Shown one piece after another: positions 1,331 through 15,349 of a DNA stretch of 15,349 bases. The notes beneath the pieces are model-generated. The model ran no database searches. It saw nothing but the letters and a program-made list of their open reading frames with translations, and had not been told where the DNA came from. Location of the stretch: the IMG/VR virus record IMGVR_UViG_3300025407_001511, one strand, 5' to 3'. Both the position numbers and the translations under genes were made by a program. Source of the DNA: a virus. Position 1 is the stretch's first letter. Each line of letters begins with the position of its first letter.

Positions 1331-1332
1331 AG

Positions 1333-1406
1333 CGACCTTGATGGGACTCGAACCCACGACCCCCACCGTGACAGGGTGGTGCTCTAACCAACTGAGCTAC
1401 AAGGCC
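1333..1406 (-). tRNA. trnD: tRNA-Asp, anticodon GUC.
   Basis: The reverse complement of 1333-1406 folds as a canonical cloverleaf. Acceptor stem is GGCCUUG/CAAGGUC with one G-U pair. D arm is GCUC-AGUUGGUUA-GAGC. Anticodon stem is CCACC/GGUGG with loop CUGUCAC, giving anticodon GUC. Variable loop is GGGUC. T arm is GUGGG-UUCGAGU-CCCAU (GGTTCGAGTCC box). Discriminator is G and no CCA is encoded. It is wedged between two coupled CDSs, with a 9-nt gap above and a 2-nt gap below. Confidence 0.9.
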
Positions 1407-1900: not shown

Positions 1901-1945
1901 AACTTTATGATATATGCAATATTTGCATAAATCAAGCTATTATCA
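1901..1945 (-). promoter_or_regulatory. Sigma70-like promoter (TTGATT-N17-TATCAT on the minus strand) whose spacer is a 17-bp palindrome TATGCAA-TAT-TTGCATA (1913-1929), an operator-like site.
   Basis: This is the only intergenic gap over 40 nt in the 1.4-4.4 kb region and it is AT-rich. Reverse complement reads tgataatagcTTGATTtatgcaaatattgcataTATCATaaagttATG. The perfect 7-bp inverted arms with a 3-bp spacer lie exactly between the -35 and -10 hexamers. Confidence 0.3.
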
Positions 1946-2491
1946 ATTATTTGGCAATTCTGTCAAAATATTGAAAGAAGCAGCAAGATCAGCTGGCATC
2001 ATTTGGTAAGGGTTGCGGTCGAATACAATGCCGCCTGCCCACAAGGATTGTGCTACTACGGCACTACAAATCATGGTGTTGCTATTTGTGAACTGCATCT
2101 TAATACCAGTCAGCAACTCCAAGGCAATACTCAAGATGGTTAGGAAACCATACTTATCCTTAATGAAGCTCTTGCAAGCAGAAACCGTTTGATCACGGCT
2201 TTGCTTGTTAAGCTTTGTTGTAACGTAGTAATACTCTACGTCTTTGTATTCACTAATGTTGCTTACGATAACACCACGGCCAACAGCCTCAACGATGGTT
2301 CCACCTTCATCGATGATCATAGCTGCATGGTTCCAATGAGCAAAAGGCTTCATCTTTCCGTGGTAACGGATGAATTGACCAAAACGAATGAACTTAGCTA
2401 GAATGCCCTTAGATGAAACCAGGATGAAGTCACCTGGTACATACTTTGTTGGGTCTTGTCCTGCGGCATATACCTTATATGTCGTAGTCAT
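1943..2491 (-). CDS. Permuted papain-fold (NlpC/P60 superfamily, YaeF/YiiX/C92-like) hydrolase; possible endolysin-type peptidase.
   Basis: 182 aa. Motifs appear in the permuted order typical of YiiX/LRAT-type enzymes: N-terminal PGDFILV, a His region FAHWNHAAMII, and a later Cys region MICSAVVAQSLW. A Shine-Dalgarno AAGGTGA precedes the ATG at 2489-2491. Confidence 0.45.
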   Translation of the reverse strand: MTTTYKVYAAGQDPTKYVPGDFILVSSKGILAKFIRFGQFIRYHGKMKPFAHWNHAAMIIDEGGTIVEAVGRGVIVSNISEYKDVEYYYVTTKLNKQSRDQTVSACKSFIKDKYGFLTILSIALELLTGIKMQFTNSNTMICSAVVAQSLWAGGIVFDRNPYQMMPADLAASFNILTELPNN

Positions 2492-3539: not shown

Positions 3540-4406
3540 CTACATACGCGGATACTTGAGCTTTTTAAACCGTTCGAGGCTCATTCCCTCATATCTACGG
3601 CACAAAGAGTCAAGTGAAATCTGCTGGATGTCATAACTACCGTTTTGGACACCATGCTTAACGACAATACCTCTAAAGTGAGCATTGCCTTGTGGTCCCT
3701 TGTAGTTTTCATCGTGCAGGTAACAAGCACCGGCTACAAGGCCATGCTGTGAGAACGCATCATTCTCATCTCTTCCACCATTTACGTAACGCATGCCATA
3801 AAGGAACGTTTGTTGGTGACCCATAGTAAATGAGTGGCCGATATTCTTCAGACGAGCATCAATCGTACCACCATAGGGGTTTCCCGTCATAGGGTTATAA
3901 AAGAAGTGACTGTAAGCTACACCATCAAGCCAAAGAATGTGCTTGAATGGGCTAACTCTCCAACCGCTACGGGCATAGTCAAGGTCATCTGTGCTAAATA
4001 GGCCATCAATCTGTGCATCCATCTCTGTTGCACGGTTGATACGATCTTCGTGGTTACCAAGAAGAATGTGACGCTCTGGGTTCCAGATAGCATGCTTAGA
4101 CTTACGCTTGTTTTCGTTATAGTCATAAAGAGGCTGGTTTAGGATGTGCCAGTGTTCATTGGCAGCTTCAATGTCTGCTTTGACACGACGACCCTCCATG
4201 CTCTTCTTACCCTTATCGTACATTGAAAGGGCTGGCATATCAGCGTGGTCACCAAGGTGAATGATCTTCACATCTTGGTTGTGGAACTCTTCTACAATAT
4301 AGTTACCGATCCAAGTGAGGTGGTCGGTTGGGACCCCATCTTTAGCTTGGGTGTCCGGGATAACGATGTGTGTTGCTGGGTCTTTCTCGACAGAGCTATT
4401 CGTCAC
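3540..4406 (-). CDS. Calcineurin-like metallophosphoesterase.
   Basis: 288 aa. Ordered metallophosphatase motifs are present: IVIPDTQ (motif I variant), IIHLGDHAD (GDxxD), LLGNHEDR (GNH[DE]), plus later His-containing motifs (GHSFTMGHQQ). GTG start at 4404-4406 with TAAGGAA 6 nt upstream. Confidence 0.7.
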   Translation of the reverse strand: MTNSSVEKDPATHIVIPDTQAKDGVPTDHLTWIGNYIVEEFHNQDVKIIHLGDHADMPALSMYDKGKKSMEGRRVKADIEAANEHWHILNQPLYDYNENKRKSKHAIWNPERHILLGNHEDRINRATEMDAQIDGLFSTDDLDYARSGWRVSPFKHILWLDGVAYSHFFYNPMTGNPYGGTIDARLKNIGHSFTMGHQQTFLYGMRYVNGGRDENDAFSQHGLVAGACYLHDENYKGPQGNAHFRGIVVKHGVQNGSYDIQQISLDSLCRRYEGMSLERFKKLKYPRM

Positions 4407-4870: not shown

Positions 4871-5101
4871 TTAGTTAGCTTTGTAAGCTACAAGTGCCAA
4901 GTTCTTTAGGCACTCTTCTGGGGTGATCCCATTTACGCTTGATAGTTTATTGATAAACACCATCATAACACCAGCAAGTGAGCTGAAGAGTTGGATGGGA
5001 TCACTCTCGAGGACCATTTCATAAGCTAGTTCCTCTTGGCCGCTGATGATTGCTGTCATCAAAGCGACTACGTTGCCAATGTTCTCTGTTACAGAATCCA
5101 T
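4871..5101 (-). CDS. Small hypothetical protein, 76 aa.
   Basis: The track ORF begins with a GTG at 5137, inside the Dps gene. The in-frame ATG at 5099-5101 overlaps the Dps stop as TAATG and is the more plausible start (MDSVTENIGNVVALMTAIISGQ...). Confidence 0.4.
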   Translation of the reverse strand: MDSVTENIGNVVALMTAIISGQEELAYEMVLESDPIQLFSSLAGVMMVFINKLSSVNGITPEECLKNLALVAYKAN

Positions 5102-5622
5102 TATGCCTCGGTAGACGCCTTCAAGAACCAACTCCACTTTTGGTGTTGATCAATGCGTTCAGCAATGAAGTTTGCAATACCTTGCTCGTTATCTTTGTCA
5201 GCAAGAACAAAGACCTTTTTAATGTGATCAATGTATTCGTTATTCATATCTAAGAATTGCTTAGCAAGATTACGTGCATCATCATCGTTAGAACCTACTT
5301 CTTTAATTCTACTAAGTCCAGACAATTGGCTCATTACAAAAGGAGCTTTAGCATCAAGCTTTCTGATGTTTTCTGCAATTGGGTCAATGTTTTCGTAGAT
5401 ATCATCTACGATCTCATCAAAGAACTTGTGATATTGATAGAAGTCATTACCAACAACATTCCAGTGGAAACCATGAATAGTGTGATAGAGAACGTATGCT
5501 TCAGCAAGCATTCTTTTCAGAGCAGTGACCAAATCACTAACATCTTCTTCATATTCTGGGTTTCTAGTGTCGTCTTCTACTTCTGTTGCACTGACGACTC
5601 TAAAGCCATTCCAATTGTCCAT
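5101..5622 (-). CDS. dps: Dps-family (DNA-binding protein from starved cells) ferritin-like protein.
   Basis: 173 aa. Dps hallmark motifs are present: HTIHGFHWNVVGNDFYQYHKFFDE (ferroxidase-site His/Asp/Glu spacing) and the typical C-terminus ...ERIDQHQKWSWFLKAS. ATG at 5620-5622. Confidence 0.7.
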   Translation of the reverse strand: MDNWNGFRVVSATEVEDDTRNPEYEEDVSDLVTALKRMLAEAYVLYHTIHGFHWNVVGNDFYQYHKFFDEIVDDIYENIDPIAENIRKLDAKAPFVMSQLSGLSRIKEVGSNDDDARNLAKQFLDMNNEYIDHIKKVFVLADKDNEQGIANFIAERIDQHQKWSWFLKASTEA

Positions 5623-7014: not shown

Positions 7015-8295
7015 TTAGAACCTAAAGAACTTTTCGAGAACATCAACGGGGAGACCGATAGATGAAGTTCTTGCAGCAGGTGGGTTCGTTGGGTCTTTTG
7101 CCCAAGCTGCTCTAGAAGCAACATCTGCATTGTTTTTAGCTTTGTTGTAGTTCATGCCAGTTCCAGGAGTCGCTATAGCTTTTCCATGTGCTTCTGCTGC
7201 ATCCATGTGTGCGAAGTAAGCTTCTCTGTGATCAGGGTTGTTACCATGGAAAGTATCAGCACCATGAAACTCTGGAGAACCATCGGAGTTTGTTCTTCCT
7301 GTCCATGGAGTGTTACCCTGCAACTTGTTAGCAGCATTGAGGTGATTATCACGCAAAGTTGCATGATAGTTATTGGTATCATCCTTTTGGGAGTCTTTAC
7401 GATCCATGAACATGTGTGCAGCATCATACATACCGGCTTGCTTGGATGCAGTGGCGTGACCAAAACCATCAGTCAGCTCAAGAGGACCACGATCAGCTTC
7501 GCCAGGTGTCATATCGTGTGAACGAGGAATTAAGTTGCTATTTGGTTTAATGTCATACAAGCTTTGACCTTCGCTCTGCTGAGGGGTCTTGTTGTAGAAC
7601 TTGTATTGTGTGTAACCGTTGTAGTAGTCCTTGCTCAAGAGGGCAAGATCCTCGTCCATTGGCTTACCGGCTTGTGCATCGCCGTAGCCTTGGTAGTAAA
7701 GCTCACTGTCGTTAGCTTCTTTGAACATAGCGTAGAAAGCACCAGCGGCACCCATCTTGGCTTCTTCCTTAACGATGTCACGCCCAGCATCAAGGTCGCC
7801 AGCAGTAGGGCCTTCTACTGTTGTAAGGCTCTCACCCGAGAAGTTATTTTCGCCAATGCCGTGGTCATTAGCAGGCTGGTTGCAACCACAATTTGTGCAT
7901 GCAATGCGTGTTCCTGGGAAGTATGTCTTTTCGCAGTGATTACAGAATGGCTCACCATTCTCCATCACGTATGCAATTCTTGCATTCATGCTCATGTTTG
8001 CTCCAATAATTGTTGATAGCGATCCTGGAGATACGCTAGAAAGCCCTTCATTGCTTACAACTGGTGGTTGCCCCTCGAGATCAATTGTATCCTTAGGCTC
8101 ATCGCCCAAAGCAGTCAATCTCGTAGAGTTTTCGTCTTCGTTACCAATGTCTGCAAATCTAAAGTGGCCAACAGTACCGACTTGGCTTTGTCCTGGAAGG
8201 CCAAACCCTGCATCGTCTTCTTCGGTAGCGTCTTCAATGCCTCGTAGCGAAGCATCGTCTCCGTAATTACCGTTATCCTGCGTAGCGTATCTCAT
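7015..8295 (-). CDS. Hypothetical protein, about 426 aa, with an internal zinc ribbon (CNHCEKTYFPGTRIACTNCGC); rich in Gly/Asn/Asp and possibly structural.
   Basis: Long ORF. The first track codon at 8296-8298 is TTG, and the ATG at 8293-8295 is the likely start. No recognisable enzyme motif. Confidence 0.55.
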   Translation of the reverse strand: MRYATQDNGNYGDDASLRGIEDATEEDDAGFGLPGQSQVGTVGHFRFADIGNEDENSTRLTALGDEPKDTIDLEGQPPVVSNEGLSSVSPGSLSTIIGANMSMNARIAYVMENGEPFCNHCEKTYFPGTRIACTNCGCNQPANDHGIGENNFSGESLTTVEGPTAGDLDAGRDIVKEEAKMGAAGAFYAMFKEANDSELYYQGYGDAQAGKPMDEDLALLSKDYYNGYTQYKFYNKTPQQSEGQSLYDIKPNSNLIPRSHDMTPGEADRGPLELTDGFGHATASKQAGMYDAAHMFMDRKDSQKDDTNNYHATLRDNHLNAANKLQGNTPWTGRTNSDGSPEFHGADTFHGNNPDHREAYFAHMDAAEAHGKAIATPGTGMNYNKAKNNADVASRAAWAKDPTNPPAARTSSIGLPVDVLEKFFRF

Positions 8296-8330: not shown

Positions 8331-9410
8331 TTATTCCCAGCTGGTTGGTTTGTCATTGTTAGTTGAATTGAAACGATCTTCATTCAACAAATCAATTAAT
8401 CTATTGCTGCTACCAGTGATTGGTCGAGCTGGCGTTGGGAAGTTAGATATAGTTTGTGGGAAATTAAGCTCAAGGTTAATTCCTGCTCCAGGACCAGATG
8501 ACCCTTTTTCTGGCGTTTGCTTTGTAGGCATTGGTTCTTGACCAGTTTCAAGCTTAGTTTTCTGTTGTGGTGGGTTACTAGTCTCTTGCTCACTCTTAGT
8601 AGAAGTTTCTTCTTCAAGAGAAGGTTCTGGCATAGCTTCTGTTTTATCACCAATTGTTTTAGGAGCTGGCTGCCAAGTTGTGGGAGATGGTTGTGGTGTG
8701 CTAGGAGGAGTCTTTGATGGCTTACCAGGAACAGTGAAAGGTGGAACTGTGATTGGCTTAGTAGGAGCCAATGGGTGAGTCTCGAGAGGCATGATGCTAC
8801 CAACTACGGGGTTAGCAGGGCTTGCAAAGCTCTGTCCACCACCAGAATCTGGCGTATTGTTGATATCATTGCTATTGTCGCCATTTTCATTACCGCTTGA
8901 GTTGCTACTAGGCAAGTTCTTCAATGCATCGCTAAGGCCACCACCTTCTGCACCTGCAGCGGCCTCTCCAGCGCCAGCGACTGCTTCTCCAGCACCAAGA
9001 AGCTCTGGGATAGCAAGAAGAGGACCAGCAGTCACAATTGTGCTTGCTGTGACCATGCGAAGTTCCTTAGCAGCGAACCCCTTACCAGCTTCTGACTGGT
9101 AAACTTGGTTATCTGTCAATGCATAAGGAATAACGTTAACAGTTGCGTGCGCTTTGCGCAGCATTTCTGTTGCAATGCCTTGGTTTCGGTATTCTGGCTC
9201 GACGTAAACACCATCCATGATGTAGTTGCCACTAGCTTGCTTTTCAGCAGTGAAATAACCGATTCTTTCGTCTCCAACCATTGCTTCAACAAGAAGACCA
9301 GAGAACGTGCCACCAGTCTTGTATTGCATTGGGCCAACGTTAGCAACAATTCGAACCTTGTCACCTTGTTCTTCAAGGATCTCATTAAGTCTTGGTGGGA
9401 TAGTAGCCAT
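8331..9410 (-). CDS. GNAT-family N-acetyltransferase-like N-terminal domain fused to a long Gly/Ala-, Ser/Asn- and Pro/Thr-rich low-complexity C-terminal region.
   Basis: 359 aa. GNAT motif A is VYVEPEYRNQGIATEMLRKA (R-x-x-G-x-A acetyl-CoA pyrophosphate loop). Residues about 130-359 are low-complexity (AGAGEAAAGAEGGG..., PPSTPQPSPTTWQPAPK...). The ATG at 9408-9410 overlaps the upstream stop (TAATG). Confidence 0.5.
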   Translation of the reverse strand: MATIPPRLNEILEEQGDKVRIVANVGPMQYKTGGTFSGLLVEAMVGDERIGYFTAEKQASGNYIMDGVYVEPEYRNQGIATEMLRKAHATVNVIPYALTDNQVYQSEAGKGFAAKELRMVTASTIVTAGPLLAIPELLGAGEAVAGAGEAAAGAEGGGLSDALKNLPSSNSSGNENGDNSNDINNTPDSGGGQSFASPANPVVGSIMPLETHPLAPTKPITVPPFTVPGKPSKTPPSTPQPSPTTWQPAPKTIGDKTEAMPEPSLEEETSTKSEQETSNPPQQKTKLETGQEPMPTKQTPEKGSSGPGAGINLELNFPQTISNFPTPARPITGSSNRLIDLLNEDRFNSTNNDKPTSWE

Positions 9411-14479: not shown

Positions 14480-14665
14480 ATGAAGCGTTTTCAGCTGATT
14501 TCCCTGCTCCTTGGTAGCTTTGCGTTCACGTTCGCAGTATCGTTCGTGAACACAATGATCTCGTGGTACACACCCATGGGGCAGGCACAGACCGTACTCA
14601 CGGTCTCGTTGTCGTTCACCTTCGTGGTGTTCGTGGCTGCAGTCCTGTACACAGCCAAGAAGTAG
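14480..14665 (+). CDS. Small membrane protein, 61 aa, with 2 predicted TM helices.
   Basis: ATG at 14480. Two hydrophobic stretches (LISLLLGSFAFTFAVSFV and VLTVSLSFTFVVFVAAVLY) and a KK C-terminus. Weak GAGA-type Shine-Dalgarno. It is the first gene on the plus strand after the junction. Confidence 0.4.
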   Translation: MKRFQLISLLLGSFAFTFAVSFVNTMISWYTPMGQAQTVLTVSLSFTFVVFVAAVLYTAKK

Positions 14666-14747
14666 TACGCAATGCCGAAATCATCACGTCGGGAGATGTT
14701 GTGGTCGTCGTAGGGTGATGCCTACGGCCTGATGATGGCAGTCAGCT

Positions 14748-14795
14748 AACTAAACCAGTCCTGAGGAGGACACTATGAAGGAAGTAACAACGATC
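14748..14795 (+). repeat. Copy 1 of a perfect 48-bp direct repeat spanning the Shine-Dalgarno, ATG and first 7 codons (AACTAAACCAGTCCTGAGGAGGACACTATGAAGGAAGTAACAACGATC).
   Basis: Identical to 15196-15243, 448 bp away. The flanks differ immediately outside the 48 bp. Confidence 0.85.
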
Positions 14796-15143
14796 GACGC
14801 TGCTAAGGCTTTGGTTGAGCACTACGCTGCTGCGGCTGAGCTCATGACTGCTGAGGCTAAGGCTGAGTACGAGGCTGCTTTGGCTGCGTACGAGGCTGTT
14901 GAGGCTAAGTACGAGGCTAAGCAGGACGCTGCTTGGGCTAAGCGTGACGCTGCTAAGGCTGAGTACTACGCTGCTCAGGCTGAGTTCAAGGCTGCCGAGG
15001 CTGAGTTCGACGATGCTTGGGCTGAGTACCACGCTGCTTTGGCTAAGTACGACGCTGCTTTGTCTAAGCCTGAGGTCAAGGCTGCTTGGGCTAAGTTCTA
15101 CGCTGCTATGGCTGAGCTCAACGCTGCTCAGGCTGAGCAGTAA
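14775..15143 (+). CDS. Acidic Ala/Glu/Lys/Tyr-rich heptad-repeat (coiled-coil) protein, 122 aa.
   Basis: A strong Shine-Dalgarno GAGGAGGA sits 7 nt upstream of the ATG. Aromatics (Y/F/W) recur every 7 residues (positions 32, 39, 46, 64, 71, 78, 85, 92) in an A-E-Y-x-A-A-x heptad. Net charge is about -13. The gene is about 58% GC with extreme GCT/GAG/AAG codon bias. The antisense ORF 14742..15032 is an artefact. Confidence 0.65.
   Translation: MKEVTTIDAAKALVEHYAAAAELMTAEAKAEYEAALAAYEAVEAKYEAKQDAAWAKRDAAKAEYYAAQAEFKAAEAEFDDAWAEYHAALAKYDAALSKPEVKAAWAKFYAAMAELNAAQAEQ
14850..15130 (+). repeat. About nine tandem copies of a 21-bp unit (consensus GCTGCTnnGGCTGAGTACGAG-like), in frame within the Ala-rich gene.
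   Basis: Copies read directly: ggctgagtacgaggctgc, ggctaagtacgaggctaagc, ggctgagtactacgctgc, ggctgagttcaaggctgc, ggctgagttcgacgatgc, ggctgagtaccacgctgc, ggctaagtacgacgctgc, ggctaagttctacgctgc, ggctgagctcaacgctgc. Confidence 0.7.
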
Positions 15144-15195
15144 CAGCTCGGTTCACAAGGGGTATGAGCTCCACCCCACCCAACGGGCTCAACCC

Positions 15196-15243
15196 AACTA
15201 AACCAGTCCTGAGGAGGACACTATGAAGGAAGTAACAACGATC
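15196..15243 (+). repeat. Copy 2 of the 48-bp translation-initiation cassette.
   Basis: Same 48 nt as 14748-14795, here heading the next gene. Confidence 0.85.
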
Positions 15244-15349
15244 AGCGGTTCCGTCTACCTCATCAATGAAGATGAGCAGATGTGGTGCCGGAAGTCAACT
15301 GCCCCTGTGCGCAAGTACGATAACGGGGAGTACGTCGACACCGCTCTGG
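15223..15349 (+). CDS. Hypothetical protein, 5' part only (MKEVTTISGSVYLINEDEQMWCRKSTAPVRKYDNGEYVDTAL...); continues beyond the window.
   Basis: The ATG at 15223 is preceded by the same GAGGAGGA ribosome-binding site. Its first 7 residues (MKEVTTI) are identical to the previous gene because of the 48-bp repeat. The open frame runs to the window edge. Confidence 0.55.
   Translation, partial: MKEVTTISGSVYLINEDEQMWCRKSTAPVRKYDNGEYVDTAL

What the first reader, a model, noticed from the sequence alone, without database searches (positions are those of the whole stretch)
14775..15143. Acidic Ala/Glu/Tyr heptad coiled-coil protein assembled from nine tandem 21-bp repeats, first strongly translated gene after the divergent junction
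The 122-aa protein has aromatic residues at every seventh position and a net charge of about -13. It is encoded by about nine in-frame copies of a 21-bp unit with extreme GCT/GAG codon bias. Its GC content is about 58% against about 45% for the minus-strand block, pointing to recent repeat expansion or foreign origin. It sits with a consensus Shine-Dalgarno at the head of a new transcription unit. Phages typically place early anti-host functions in such a position, and small acidic helical dimers there can be DNA mimics of the Ocr type. The sequence could equally be a structural coiled-coil spacer.
Basis: partly seen in the sequence, partly recalled or inferred. Interest (0 to 1): 0.65.

Follow-up and report, generated by a model that had tools for sequence, protein, structure and literature searches.

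The report
Variable-length alanine-rich coiled-coil phage gene
This is a real small phage gene built from about 15 in-frame 21-bp repeats; it encodes an alanine-rich helical protein from an undescribed family that ranges from 17 to 182 residues among related uncultured phages, has no known function, and does not look like a DNA mimic.

Summary
The ORF at 14775-15143 (122 aa) is real.

It has no database homologues. DNA-pattern scans nevertheless found a family in related uncultured phages. Members share the start MKE[V/A]TT and an ...AEQ stop (the stop was part of the search pattern). Lengths are 17, 35, 90, 92, 97, 112, 121, 122 and 182 aa.

Column shuffling predicts 15.6 stop codons in this frame; none is observed, so the protein frame is under selection.

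Acidity is not conserved: net charge runs from 0 to -17, against about -28 for Ocr. The DNA-mimic idea is therefore not supported.

The high GC follows from amino-acid composition and plus-strand codon usage, not from foreign origin.

The gene is not first after the junction. A 61-aa membrane-protein gene and a type II hammerhead ribozyme (14673-14747) lie upstream.

A perfect 48-nt copy of its Shine-Dalgarno site plus first seven codons heads the next gene.

Synonymous sites are oddly frozen: 4 synonymous against 206 nonsynonymous unit differences.

The likeliest reading is an abundant accessory protein forming a helical hairpin or coiled coil. Its function is unproven.

The parts
14480..14665 (+). 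Upstream neighbour: a 61-aa ORF with two hydrophobic segments. It is the first clear plus-strand gene after the divergent junction.
   Evidence: ORF list. It is called as a gene on all related contigs. A homologue with 77% identity lies next to the junction in the related phage locus L019. No family match was found.
14673..14747 (+). Candidate type II hammerhead ribozyme. GAAA is at 14677-14680 and GUC at 14704-14706, with predicted cleavage after C14706. Stem I is 14707-14714 paired with 14721-14728. CUGAUGA is at 14729-14735.
   Evidence: Rfam RF02276 scores 31.5 bits (gathering threshold 37), E = 4e-4, and the full model is matched. Sister copies in related loci reach 36.7-38.3 bits. In 8 copies stem I is 100% paired, with compensatory changes in 5 of 8 pairs.
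14748..14795 (+). Leader copy 1: the 5' UTR with the Shine-Dalgarno site GAGGAGG (14763-14769) plus the first seven codons (MKEVTTI) of the repeat gene.
   Evidence: Perfect 48-nt direct repeat with 15196-15243. Zero copies are expected by chance. The coding start ATGAAGGAAG[T/C]AACAAC is shared by 8 of 9 family members.
14775..15143 (+). Protein-coding gene of 122 aa, alanine-rich (37% Ala), encoding a heptad-repeat helical protein.
   Evidence: ORF. An identical protein is called on contigs from 37 sample blocks. Stop-codon avoidance in this frame is strong: 0 observed against 15.6 expected. The start and stop are conserved across the family. AF2 predicts three helices with pLDDT 88.
14790..15134 (+). 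Array of 15 in-frame 21-bp units with consensus GAG TAC GAC GCT GCT nnG GCT, encoding [E/K]-[Y/F/L]-x-A-A-x-A. Four in-frame insertions of 6, 6, 12 and 6 nt interrupt it.
   Evidence: Tandem Repeats Finder, the repeat finder families D1-D3, and in-register tiling with per-column information content.
15159..15191 (+). Conserved intergenic element GGGGTATGAGCTCCACCCCACCCAACGGGCTCA in the 3' UTR. Its nature is unknown.
   Evidence: The same element is found at 6 intergenic places in 5 loci. The GGGG/CCCC pair is replaced by CCGG/CCGG in L033. There is no Rfam match.
15196..15243 (+). Leader copy 2: the identical Shine-Dalgarno site plus seven codons, now heading the next gene.
   Evidence: In strain variants L002, L015, L016 and L036, the sequence from exactly this point onward is replaced by a different gene.
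15224..15349 (+). The 5' part of an 86-aa orphan gene (MKEVTTISGSVYLINEDEQ...), cut off by the end of the window.
   Evidence: The full gene is seen in L001 at 7058-7318. It has no homologue in any related locus or in Pfam or PHROGs.

Best explanation
Window 14775-15143 is a genuine protein-coding accessory gene of an uncultured phage.

**What it encodes**
- It is built almost entirely from about 15 in-frame 21-bp units.
- Each unit encodes the heptad g=[E/K], a=[Y/F/L], b=polar, c=A, d=A, e=variable (K/E/W/L/Q), f=A.
- The product is predicted to be nearly all alpha-helix, folding back on itself as an antiparallel, alanine-packed ('Alacoil'-like) helical hairpin or coiled coil. Such a fold can bind itself or another protein through helix-helix contacts.

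**The family**
- It belongs to a previously undescribed family present in at least six related phage lineages.
- Members share the start MKE[V/A]TT and the end ...A-x-AEQ-stop. They carry roughly 0 to 24 heptads (17-182 aa).
- Array length changes by slipped-strand mispairing or unequal recombination between units (inferred).
- The whole leader-plus-gene cassette moves between co-occurring phage genomes (shown by one near-identical gene in two different contexts).

**Expression (inferred)**
- Transcription is from a long plus-strand transcript.
- A type II hammerhead ribozyme would cut that transcript 68 nt upstream of the start codon.
- Translation then starts from a strong Shine-Dalgarno site.

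**Most likely role (inferred, about 35%)**
- An abundant, non-enzymatic protein of the non-structural programme that acts stoichiometrically on a host or phage protein. The comparison is with small phage helical-hairpin inhibitors.
- It does not act by DNA mimicry.

**Sub-claim likelihoods**

| Claim | Likelihood |
|---|---|
| Real gene in this frame | 0.95 |
| Family with variable repeat number | 0.95 |
| Helical coiled coil | 0.8 |
| Hammerhead processing | 0.7 |
| Host-factor-binding role | 0.35 |
For: **Coding in this frame**
- ATG with GAGGAGG 5 nt upstream.
- All spacings between units are multiples of 3.
- In 67 units from 6 distinct family members, shuffling bases within columns gives 15.6 in-frame stops (minimum 7 in 2000 shuffles). 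None is observed.
- The other open frames (+2 and the in-phase antisense frame) are open by composition alone. They lack conserved start codons or Shine-Dalgarno sites.
- Column 1 is restricted to purines, giving K or E.

**Family**
- L019 carries the 35-aa MKEVTTHEAAWAKFNAASAELDAAWTEFNAAKAEQ.
- Pattern scans found members of 17, 90, 92, 97, 112, 121 and 182 aa.
- The N-terminal motif was not part of the search pattern, yet 8 of 9 members share it.
- The host phages are related: the 371-aa neighbour shows 22-61% identity and a 54-aa neighbour 42-94%.

**Mobility**
- The L036 gene differs from the window gene by 1 mismatch and one 3-nt indel, but sits in a different gene context.
- In strain variants the downstream replacement starts exactly at the second leader copy.

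**Helix and hairpin**
- AF2 predicts helices 2-21, 26-96 and 99-121, with pLDDT 88 and pTM 0.54.

**Hammerhead**
-.
- There is precedent for hammerheads flanking single phage genes in PMC3088659.

**Non-structural neighbourhood**
- Small orphan genes, tRNA or tRNA-like elements, an HNH endonuclease, an AAA_5 ATPase and a weak transglycosylase-like hit.
Against: - No experiment or homology ties the protein to any function.
- Expression timing is unknown.
- The 17-aa and 35-aa versions, and the absence of the gene from the L020-type phage, show it is dispensable or replaceable.
- The window's hammerhead copy scores below Rfam's gathering threshold (31.5 against 37).
- Near-total absence of synonymous differences between units (4 against 206 nonsynonymous) is not what simple protein-level purifying selection predicts. 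It may indicate an additional nucleic-acid-level constraint.
Confidence: 0.55

Rival explanations
1. Ocr- or ArdA-like DNA mimic. An acidic helical dimer imitates the phosphate backbone and blocks type I restriction-modification or another DNA-binding defence.
For: - The window protein is acidic (net -10), small and helical.
- It lies in a region of small non-structural genes.
- Hammerhead ribozymes flank the anti-restriction gene ardA in an Agrobacterium prophage (PMC3088659). That is an analogy only.
Against: - There is no profile, sequence or fold match to any DNA mimic.
- Charge density is a third or less of Ocr's (-0.08 against -0.24 per residue).
- Acidity is not conserved. Family members of 92 and 97 aa have net charge -1 and -2, and 11-18% of residues are basic.
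- The conserved feature is an Ala/aromatic heptad, not an acidic surface.
Confidence: 0.04
2. Structural or assembly protein: a scaffold, head-decoration, fibre-spacer or size-determination coiled coil, with length set by repeat number.
For: - Scaffolding and spacer proteins are typically small, helical coiled coils rich in Ala, Glu and Lys and made in large amounts (general knowledge).
- The strong Shine-Dalgarno site and extreme codon homogeneity fit high expression.
Against: - No recognisable capsid, portal, terminase or tail gene lies within about 9 kb downstream in any related locus. The neighbours are orphan genes, tRNA-like elements, HNH, an AAA_5 ATPase and a transglycosylase-like protein.
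- The gene's position is not fixed relative to any conserved gene.
- It shrinks to 17-35 aa in some phages and is replaced in others. That is hard to reconcile with an essential structural role.
Confidence: 0.12
3. Functionless or nearly neutral repeat-expansion ORF. A tiny leader ORF, like the 17-aa version, has been inflated by slippage of a 21-bp unit and is translated without contributing to fitness.
For: - The size series 17, 35, 90-122 and 182 aa shares the same start and stop.
- The gene is lost or replaced in some lineages.
- No homologues exist outside this phage group.
Against: - Stop codons are avoided (0 against 15.6 expected), although T at column 16 and A at column 17 are each the commonest base.
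- Residue classes are kept by heptad position: a is hydrophobic or aromatic, c, d and f are Ala, and g is E or K.
- Five independent lineages keep 90-122 aa.
- The translation-initiation region is conserved at nucleotide level while the flanks have diverged.
Confidence: 0.12
4. The 21-bp array is primarily a DNA-level element, with the ORF secondary or incidental. Candidates are iterons of a replication origin, a partition-type or regulator binding array, or a recombination hot spot.
For: - The 21-bp period equals two helical turns.
- The core GCTGCTnnGGCT[G/A]AG is conserved and the spacer variable.
- The array lies near a divergent junction and a cumulative GC-skew minimum.
- Synonymous sites are as conserved as nonsynonymous Ala positions.
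- Contigs and strain variants break or recombine in and around it.
Against: - The array always coincides exactly with an ORF that has a conserved start, stop and Shine-Dalgarno site, and it avoids stops.
- There is no adjacent AT-rich stretch: GC is 0.51-0.57.
- There are no inverted repeats.
- The motif is absent from the rest of the window.
- In L019 the array lies about 3 kb from the junction, so the position is not conserved.
- Copy number falls to 0-4 in some phages.
Confidence: 0.05
5. Dual coding. A second protein is read from the +2 frame (Leu/Ser/Thr-rich, LSTTLLR-like heptads) or from the in-phase antisense frame. This would explain the frozen third codon positions.
For: - Third positions of the annotated frame are the most conserved: 1.50-1.72 bits, against 1.02-1.33 for positions 1 and 2.
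- Those third positions are second positions in frame +2 and first positions in the antisense frame.
- Both alternative frames are open across the array in every member.
Against: - Those frames cannot contain stops given the column composition. Shuffles give 0.96 and 0.13 stops, so openness carries no information.
- No conserved start codon or Shine-Dalgarno site exists. L026 has no start at all in the antisense frame. In the window, frame +2 is blocked by three stops in the first 70 nt.
- Column 1 is only A or G, although it would be four-fold degenerate in both alternative frames.
Confidence: 0.03

Closest known systems
T7 Ocr (gp0.3) and ArdA DNA-mimic anti-restriction proteins
   Same: Small, acidic, helical phage or mobile-element protein encoded among non-structural genes. 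The window protein has a similar size (122 aa against 117 aa).
   Different: - No sequence, profile or fold similarity.
- Net charge is -10 against about -28 (Ocr sequence recalled from memory).
- Acidity is not conserved in the family.
- It is built of tandem heptads and is 37% Ala.
- Length is freely variable, which a shape-matched DNA mimic would not tolerate.
Alacoil / ROP-type antiparallel coiled coils (Gernert et al. 1995, from my own knowledge; ROP structure 1yo7)
   Same: - Ala at fixed heptad positions allows very close antiparallel helix packing.
   Different: - This is a structural motif, not a homologous family.
- Here three of the seven positions are Ala, and the 'a' position is mostly Tyr, Phe or Leu.
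- The oligomeric state is untested.
NeuO poly-psi domain of prophage CUS-3 (PMC3046976)
   Same: A phage-encoded protein whose number of heptads (1-31) varies through slipped-strand mispairing of a tandem DNA repeat. Length tunes activity rather than being fixed.
   Different: - The NeuO DNA unit is 7 nt, so it causes on/off phase variation. It is an N-terminal appendage of an enzyme, and its heptad RLKTQDS is not a coiled coil in the crystal structure.
- Here the unit is 21 nt and always in frame, and the repeats make up the whole protein.
- The sampled population is clonal for 122 aa.
Small phage helical-hairpin inhibitors of host proteins, such as Aqs1 of phage DMS3 (PDB 6v7u)
   Different: - The match is generic to any helical hairpin, with 16% identity.
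- Aqs1 is not repetitive.
- No binding partner is known here. This comparison concerns how the protein might work. It is not a membership claim.
Alanine-rich heptad coiled-coil domains of polymorphic surface antigens, such as Plasmodium vivax MSP3 (PMC7335089, PMC3662707)
   Same: An Ala-rich central heptad-repeat domain predicted to form a coiled coil, with high polymorphism and length variation.
   Different: It comes from a eukaryotic parasite and is a secreted surface protein with non-repeat flanking domains. It is an analogy only and was not examined beyond the paper listing.
Unnamed phage proteins P0002/P0006 and P0005, the only weak sequence hits
   Same: - They carry the same type of heptad, K-[L/F/S]-[D/Y]-A-A-x-[A/T], encoded by 18 tandem 21-bp units.
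- They lie on a phage-like contig, as the third gene after a divergent junction.
- They start MKETTI, and the third codon base is likewise fixed by heptad position.
   Different: - E-values are only 1e-5 to 7e-4 on biased composition.
- They have additional N-terminal and C-terminal (H-x3-CPNCPWDGKTIF) regions that are absent here.
- Different codons are used (GCT GCC ... GCA), so there is no recent common DNA ancestry.
Hammerhead ribozymes flanking single genes in phage and prophage genomes (Perreault et al. 2011, PMC3088659)
   Same: Several same-strand type II hammerheads lie between small phage genes. They are proposed to cut long transcripts into gene-length mRNAs.
   Different: This concerns the gene's context, not the protein. 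The window copy is below the Rfam threshold, and cleavage is untested.

Membership tests
Ocr / ArdA DNA mimics | Sequence or profile similarity to the family | tested here: not met
   The Pfam scan at E <= 0.1 returns only a sub-threshold Mod_r hit. PHROGs, NCBIfam and PDB sequence searches return nothing.
Ocr / ArdA DNA mimics | Very high, conserved negative charge density with few basic residues | tested here: not met
   The window protein is at -0.082 per residue and family members at -0.011 to -0.062. Basic residues make up 11-18%. Ocr (sequence recalled from memory) is at -0.24 with 5% basic residues.
Ocr / ArdA DNA mimics | Fold and dimer shape that imitate bent B-form DNA | tested here: inconclusive
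Ocr / ArdA DNA mimics | Inhibition of type I restriction-modification enzymes | not testable with these tools
   Needs an expression and restriction assay.
Heptad-repeat coiled coil (Alacoil-like) | Seven-residue periodicity with hydrophobic 'a' and small or hydrophobic 'd' positions | tested here: met
   In 67 units, position a is Y 23, L 18, F 8, I 4 and V 3. Position d is A 59 and V 6. Positions c and f are A in 60 and 61 units.
Heptad-repeat coiled coil (Alacoil-like) | Alpha-helical secondary structure | tested here: met
   AF2 predicts helices at 2-21, 26-96 and 99-121, with mean pLDDT 87.8. This is a single-sequence prediction.
Heptad-repeat coiled coil (Alacoil-like) | Helix-helix supercoiled packing or a defined oligomer | tested here: inconclusive
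Hammerhead ribozyme type II (Rfam RF02276), for 14673-14747 | Catalytic core CUGANGA, GAAA and a cleavable NUH triplet in the right order | tested here: met
   CUGAUGA is at 14729-14735, CGAAA at 14676-14680 and GUC at 14704-14706. Model positions 1-66 are all matched.
Hammerhead ribozyme type II (Rfam RF02276), for 14673-14747 | Score at or above the curated gathering threshold | tested here: not met
   The window copy scores 31.5 bits against 37. Related copies in L028 and L038 score 37.5 and 38.3 bits, which pass. The L001 copy at 9190-9252 scores 36.7.
Hammerhead ribozyme type II (Rfam RF02276), for 14673-14747 | Stems supported by covariation | tested here: met
   Stem I has 8 pairs, is 100% paired in 8 copies, and 5 pairs show compensatory changes. 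None of 500 shuffles reaches the observed score. Stem II shows UGCC/GGCA changing to UGUC/GACA in L031 (read from alignment A2). My own column assignment for stem II was wrong and says nothing either way.
Hammerhead ribozyme type II (Rfam RF02276), for 14673-14747 | Self-cleavage | not testable with these tools
   Needs in vitro transcription or 5'-OH RNA mapping.
Iteron array / replication origin | Tandem 17-22-bp direct repeats together with an AT-rich unwinding region, independent of reading frame | tested here: not met
   Repeats are present. However, there is no AT-rich flank (GC 0.51-0.57). All spacings are multiples of 3. Stops are avoided in one frame. The array position is not conserved relative to the junction.
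Diversity-generating retroelement variable region | A nearby template repeat and reverse transcriptase, and variability between individuals of a population | tested here: not met
   No reverse-transcriptase domain is found in any window ORF scanned. The gene is 100% identical across at least 13 independent assemblies.
Contingency locus (NeuO-type VNTR phase variation) | A repeat unit that is not a multiple of 3, so that copy-number change switches the frame | tested here: not met
   The unit is 21 nt, and every family member is in frame.

The most novel reading that the evidence does not exclude
The array may be under two constraints at once: on the protein and on the nucleic acid.

Units differ almost only at first and second codon positions (206 nonsynonymous against 4 synonymous codon differences). 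The third base is fixed by heptad position whatever the amino acid. Leu is CTC at position 'a' but TTG at 'e', and Ala is GCG at 'g' and 'e' but GCT at 'c', 'd' and 'f'. This holds across phages whose other proteins are only 22-61% identical.

The most novel reading not excluded is this. The gene is a hypervariable, diversifying-selection 'decoy or inhibitor' cassette. Its 21-bp DNA or RNA periodicity is itself functional, for example as a target for in-register recombination that shuffles heptads between co-infecting phages. It would be delivered as a self-contained, ribozyme-delimited expression module.
Probability: 0.12. Interest if true: 0.7.

Novelty: new variant of a known kind. Interest (0 to 1): 0.45.

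Why it matters
If the reading is right, this defines a new orphan family of phage proteins. Its only invariant parts are a six-residue start, a three-residue end and a Tyr/Ala heptad. Its length changes ten-fold between relatives.

That would make it a natural system for several questions:
- how tandem-repeat genes grow from a minimal ORF;
- how repeat arrays recombine between co-occurring phages;
- why synonymous sites can stay frozen while amino acids turn over.

The context adds a second point. This phage group appears to punctuate a long transcript with hammerhead ribozymes and tRNA-like elements, producing single-gene mRNAs.

For defence and counter-defence research the practical message is negative. 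'Small, acidic, helical and early-looking' was not enough here to call a DNA mimic.

Tried and rejected
**Searches that found nothing**
- megablast of the region and tblastn of the protein and of the 371-aa neighbour against 50,697 phage records. The low-complexity filter may hide the repeat protein.
- The word-indexed protein search.
- The exhaustive phmmer search of 1.84 billion representatives. It gave only five weak, composition-driven hits. The exact protein is not in that collection, so absence of a self-hit is expected.
- Pfam, PHROGs, NCBIfam and PDB sequence searches for the protein and most neighbours.
- IMG/VR scans with the 48-nt leader and with the N-terminal pattern, and with peptides of the 371-aa protein.
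- Two scans of 185,579 species genomes for the C-terminal and N-terminal patterns. This leaves no prophage or host clue.

**Ideas considered and dropped**
- RNA structure in the mRNA: z-score -0.55, so not unusual.
- A Chi-like dispersed motif: the core occurs only inside the gene.
- A diversity-generating retroelement: the population is clonal and no reverse transcriptase was found.
- Overlapping genes in other frames.
- Concerted evolution visible as higher within-array similarity: not seen, 14.95 against 14.83 of 21.
- An intrinsic terminator after the gene: only a weak hairpin, z-score -1.0.
Full report
**1. What is at the coordinates**

Window 14775-15143 (+) is an ATG ORF of 122 codons. 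GAGGAGG at 14763-14769 lies 5 nt before the ATG.

Tandem Repeats Finder reports two period-21 arrays. One is at 14856-14918 (3.0 copies, 80% match). The other is at 14926-15137 (9.8 copies, 71% match).

Tiling the ORF in frame gives 15 units of seven codons, covering 105 of 122 codons. They are separated by four in-frame insertions of 2, 2, 4 and 2 codons. All unit-to-unit spacings are multiples of three.

Composition:
- 45 Ala (37%), 17 Glu, 12 Lys and 9 Tyr.
- 23 acidic and 13 basic residues, so net charge is -10, not -13.
- GC is 55.8%, not 58%.
- GCT accounts for 42 of 45 Ala codons and GAG for 16 of 17 Glu codons.

The 'aromatic every seventh residue' claim holds for 9 of 15 units. Four are aliphatic and two are Gln or Arg.

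The core GCTGCTNNGGCT occurs 10 times, all inside the gene, against 0.04 expected.

**2. Which frame is coding**

Frames +2 and the in-phase antisense frame are also open across the array, in this gene and in all relatives. I took 67 in-register units from six distinct family members and shuffled bases within alignment columns.

| Frame | Stops expected from shuffles | Stops observed |
|---|---|---|
| +1 (annotated) | 15.6 (minimum 7 in 2000 shuffles) | 0 |
| +2 | 0.96 | 1 |
| Antisense, in phase | 0.13 | 0 |

The two alternative frames are thus open by composition alone. They also lack conserved start codons or Shine-Dalgarno sites. In the window, frame +2 is closed by three stops in the first 70 nt.

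Column 1 of the unit is only A or G (Lys or Glu). It would be four-fold degenerate in both alternative frames. The annotated frame is therefore the selected one.

**3. A family with very different lengths**

Standard searches found nothing:
- phage BLAST;
- the word-indexed protein search;
- Pfam, PHROGs, NCBIfam and PDB.

An exhaustive phmmer search of 1.84 billion representatives gave five weak hits, with E from 4e-6 to 7e-4. The exact sequence is not in that collection.

The exact protein is nevertheless encoded on metagenome contigs from 37 sample blocks (JGI 3300025xxx and 33000060xx, ENA ERZ2727xxxx). Every copy fetched through its neighbours is also 122 aa. It is 100% identical in DNA across at least 13 assemblies. 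I could not look up the biome of these samples.

A homologue search with the neighbouring 371-aa protein found relatives at 61%, 52% and 35% identity. Their contigs were then inspected.

The 61% relative (L019) carries a 35-aa ORF, MKEVTTHEAAWAKFNAASAELDAAWTEFNAAKAEQ. It has 3.7 copies of the same 21-bp unit.

I then scanned IMG/VR and JGI metagenomes for the shared 3' end, GCTGCTNAGGCTGAGCAGTAA. This returned further members:

| Length (aa) | Loci | Note |
|---|---|---|
| 17 | L033 | Sequence VKEATTTAAAMAAKAEQ (GTG start) |
| 35 | L019 | Found via the neighbour search |
| 90 | L031 | |
| 92 | L029, L035, L037 | |
| 97 | L026, L027, L034 | N-terminus differs |
| 112 | L028, L030, L038 | |
| 121 | L036 | |
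| 122 | window | |
| 182 | L032 | |

Eight of nine distinct members start ATGAAGGAAG[T/C]AACAAC (MKE[V/A]TT). That motif was not part of the search pattern. The common ...AEQ stop was imposed by the pattern, so members with other ends would have been missed.

The phages carrying these genes are related. A 54-aa neighbour is 42-94% identical, and the 371-aa protein 22-61%.

**4. How the locus changes**

- **48-nt duplication.** In the window, a perfect 48-nt duplication (14748-14795 and 15196-15243) puts the same Shine-Dalgarno site and the same first seven codons in front of the next gene. That gene is an 86-aa orphan with no homologue in any related locus. The MKEVTT start belongs to the repeat gene in the other phages, so the orphan gene most likely captured a copy of this leader (inference).
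- **Strain variants.** In L002, L015 and L016, the DNA from exactly the start of the second copy onward is replaced by a different gene, MPAPKTKNLRK....
- **Cassette movement.** In L036, a gene differing by one mismatch and one codon indel sits behind different upstream genes. The cassette has therefore moved recently between genomes.
- **Possible chimera.** L032 (182 aa) is an exact join of the L036-type 5' part (277 nt) and the L028-type 3' part (294 nt), overlapping in a shared 22-mer. It is either a true in-register recombinant or an assembly chimera. I cannot tell which.
- **Slot replacement.** L033, with the 17-aa version, is 91% identical in DNA to the L020-type phage. That phage carries an unrelated 96-aa gene at the same slot.
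- **Assembly breaks.** Many contigs end within about 100-200 nt after the gene. This is what strain-level branching there would cause.

Units in the window are 73% identical on average (maximum 19 of 21). They are no more similar within arrays than between arrays: 14.95 against 14.83 of 21. 'Recent expansion' in this lineage is therefore not supported.

**5. Codon usage and GC**

| Codon share | Minus-strand block | Rest of plus-strand block | This gene |
|---|---|---|---|
| GAG (Glu) | 40% | 76% | 16 of 17 |
| AAG (Lys) | 70% | 87% | 12 of 12 |
| CAG (Gln) | 39% | 88% | 4 of 4 |
| GCT (Ala) | 53% | 30% | 42 of 45 |

GC is 51.6% in the rest of the plus-strand block.

The gene's G/C-ending codons thus match its own block. 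Its extra GC comes from 37% Ala. There is no sign of foreign origin.

What is unusual is GCT: 92-100% in every family member, against 30-53% in neighbours. More generally, the third base is fixed by heptad position whatever the amino acid:
- Leu is CTC in 18 of 18 cases at position 'a', but TTG in 9 of 9 at 'e'.
- Ala is GCG at 'g' and 'e', but GCT at 'c', 'd' and 'f'.
- Val is GTC at 'a', but GTT at 'c' and 'd'.

Relative to the consensus unit there are 4 synonymous and 206 nonsynonymous codon differences. Mean information per codon position is 1.02, 1.15 and 1.50 bits.

Codon optimisation alone cannot explain position-specific synonymous codons. Possible causes are:
- homogenisation of unselected sites in a recombining pool of arrays, together with selection on residues;
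- strong diversifying selection;
- a nucleic-acid-level constraint.

I could not separate these. The mRNA is not unusually structured (z-score -0.55).

The weakly similar phage protein P0002/P0006 has 18 such units with a different fixed third-base pattern. The phenomenon may therefore be general for such arrays.

**6. Expression context**

The gene is the second plus-strand gene after the junction. A 61-aa ORF with two hydrophobic segments (14480-14665) comes first.

Between them, 14673-14747 matches Rfam Hammerhead_II over the whole model. The score is 31.5 bits (threshold 37), E = 4e-4. CGAAA, GUC and CUGAUGA are all in place, and cleavage is predicted after C14706.

Sister copies on the same strand in related loci score 34.8-38.3 bits. 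In eight copies, stem I is fully paired, with compensatory changes in five of eight pairs. Stem II covaries in L031.

Hammerheads flanking single phage genes have been described and proposed to cut long transcripts into gene-length mRNAs (PMC3088659).

No sigma-70-like promoter was found on the plus strand near the gene. The 48-nt leader begins immediately after the ribozyme match.

The same block contains tRNA-like elements with odd anticodon loops. It also contains a conserved 33-nt intergenic element at 15159-15191.

Downstream genes in related loci are orphans, an HNH endonuclease, an AAA_5 ATPase and a weak transglycosylase-like protein. None is recognisably structural. Timing remains unknown.

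**7. Structure**

AlphaFold2 without an alignment predicts helices at 2-21, 26-96 and 99-121, with mean pLDDT 87.8 and pTM 0.54. The breaks fall at a Thr-containing unit and at the only Pro.

- Foldseek finds nothing significant in PDB or BFVD.

Family-wide heptad statistics:

| Heptad position | Residues |
|---|---|
| g | E or K |
| a | Y, L, F, I or V |
| b | polar |
| c | A |
| d | A (sometimes V) |
| e | K, E, W, L or Q |
| f | A |

A large 'a' residue with small 'c', 'd' and 'f' residues is the pattern of tightly packed antiparallel 'Alacoil'-type helices (from my own knowledge). Oligomerisation could not be modelled.

**8. Function**

*DNA mimicry is unlikely.*
- There is no similarity to any mimic.
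- Charge density is a third or less of Ocr's.
- Acidity is not conserved: net charge is -1 and -2 in the 92-aa and 97-aa members.
- A shape-matched mimic should not tolerate ten-fold length change.

*A structural role is not excluded.* However, it fits poorly with the neighbourhood, the mobile position and the loss or shrinkage in some lineages.

*A purely neutral ORF is contradicted* by stop avoidance, by position-specific residue classes and by five lineages keeping 90-122 aa.

My best estimate is an abundant, non-enzymatic accessory protein. It would act through helix-helix binding, either to itself or to a host or phage partner, during the non-structural programme. I put this at about 35%. 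The rest of the functional probability is spread over the rivals.

**9. Verdict**

The feature is real and coding, and it belongs to a new, fast-changing repeat family. The DNA-mimic, foreign-origin and first-gene claims are not supported.

The interesting residue is evolutionary and organisational rather than functional:
- the size series from 17 to 182 aa;
- cassette exchange at a shared leader;
- frozen synonymous sites;
- a ribozyme-punctuated operon.

Noticed in passing
window 14673-14747; also L001 9190-9252, L019 4998-5060 (-), L028 223-297 and 427-489, L029 10335-10409 (-), L031 707-781 (-), L035 3392-3466, L036 223-297: Multiple same-strand type II hammerhead ribozyme matches lie between small genes of this phage group. 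Scores are 31.5-38.3 bits against a threshold of 37. Stem I shows compensatory changes. Together with tRNA-like elements, they look like punctuation of a long transcript.
   Followed up: partly
window 14748-14795 and 15196-15243: A perfect 48-nt duplication of the Shine-Dalgarno site plus the first seven codons (MKEVTTI). Two adjacent, otherwise unrelated genes therefore share one translation-initiation region. The second gene (86 aa) has no homologue anywhere.
   Followed up: yes
L002 5739-5857, L015, L016 and L036 1293-1602, compared with window 15196 onward: Co-occurring strain variants replace everything from the start of the second leader copy onward. The replacement is a different gene encoding a very basic protein (MPAPKTKNLRKSDKVAMQKRTASNKLRKQK...).
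   Followed up: partly
window 15159-15191; L033 about 1172-1219; L028 about 1476-1521; L035 about 4876-4930; L036 855-902 and 1310-1345: A conserved 33-nt intergenic element, GGGGTATGAGCTCCACCCCACCCAACGGGCTCA, sits 30-70 nt upstream of several start codons. In L033 the GGGG...CCCC pair is replaced by CCGG...CCGG, which looks compensatory. There is no Rfam match. It could be a promoter, a processing site or a small structured RNA.
   Followed up: partly
L001 7724-7794; L019 6477-6547 and 1127-1198; L020 936-1008; L028 652-722; L029 9253-9301: tRNA-like genes with unusual anticodon loops. ARAGORN reports a two-base 'anticodon' (ta) and A34 anticodons His(ATG), Ile(AAT) and Asn(ATT). One element matches the mascRNA-like model at sub-threshold score. 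They may be processing signals rather than decoding tRNAs.
   Followed up: no
L032 271-819: A 182-aa version is an exact join of the L036-type 5' part and the L028-type 3' part across a shared 22-mer (GCTGCTTTGGCTAAGTACGACG). It is either a real in-register recombinant between two phages' arrays or an assembly chimera.
   Followed up: partly
L001 7311-7385 (upstream of the 98-aa gene): A third copy of the 31-nt hammerhead stem I plus core motif is present, but Rfam did not report it. The GAAA and GUC elements appear altered (CGAAU...GUGC). It may be a decayed ribozyme.
   Followed up: no
window 14758-14771 and 15206-15219: The Shine-Dalgarno site is embedded in a small hairpin, GUCCU-GAGG-AGGAC. 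The scan flagged it as terminator-like on the opposite strand. It might modulate ribosome access.
   Followed up: no
window 5101-5622 (-), 8331-9410 (-), 3540-4406 (-), 1943-2491 (-), 1332-1406 (-): The minus-strand block encodes several recognisable products. These are a Dps/ferritin-like protein (Pfam E = 7e-20), a GNAT acetyltransferase-domain protein, a metallophosphoesterase (PHROG E = 5e-41), a papain-like amidase or crotonase-like protein, and tRNA-Asp(GTC). Most other ORFs are orphans.
   Followed up: partly
L001 9021-9185 and homologues in L019-L023, L028-L031, L035, L037 and L038: A 54-aa basic protein (MAKANFVPAGFTIGEKAPKESARVHFTVIRNEAEQRKV...) is far better conserved (up to 94%) than its neighbours. 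It usually lies close to the repeat gene. It has no family match.
   Followed up: no
L039 5749-6399 (protein P0006/P0002) and P0005: Another phage-like contig carries a 216-aa protein with 18 tandem 21-bp units encoding K-[L/F/S]-D-A-A-x-A. It starts MKETTI and ends with an H-x3-CPNCPWDGKTIF motif. It is the third gene after a divergent junction. The third codon base is again fixed by heptad position.
   Followed up: partly
ends of L013, L014, L015, L016, L017, L018, L026 and of the window itself: Independent assemblies repeatedly terminate within about 10-210 nt after the repeat gene. This fits strain-level branching or repeat-induced assembly breaks at this spot.
   Followed up: no
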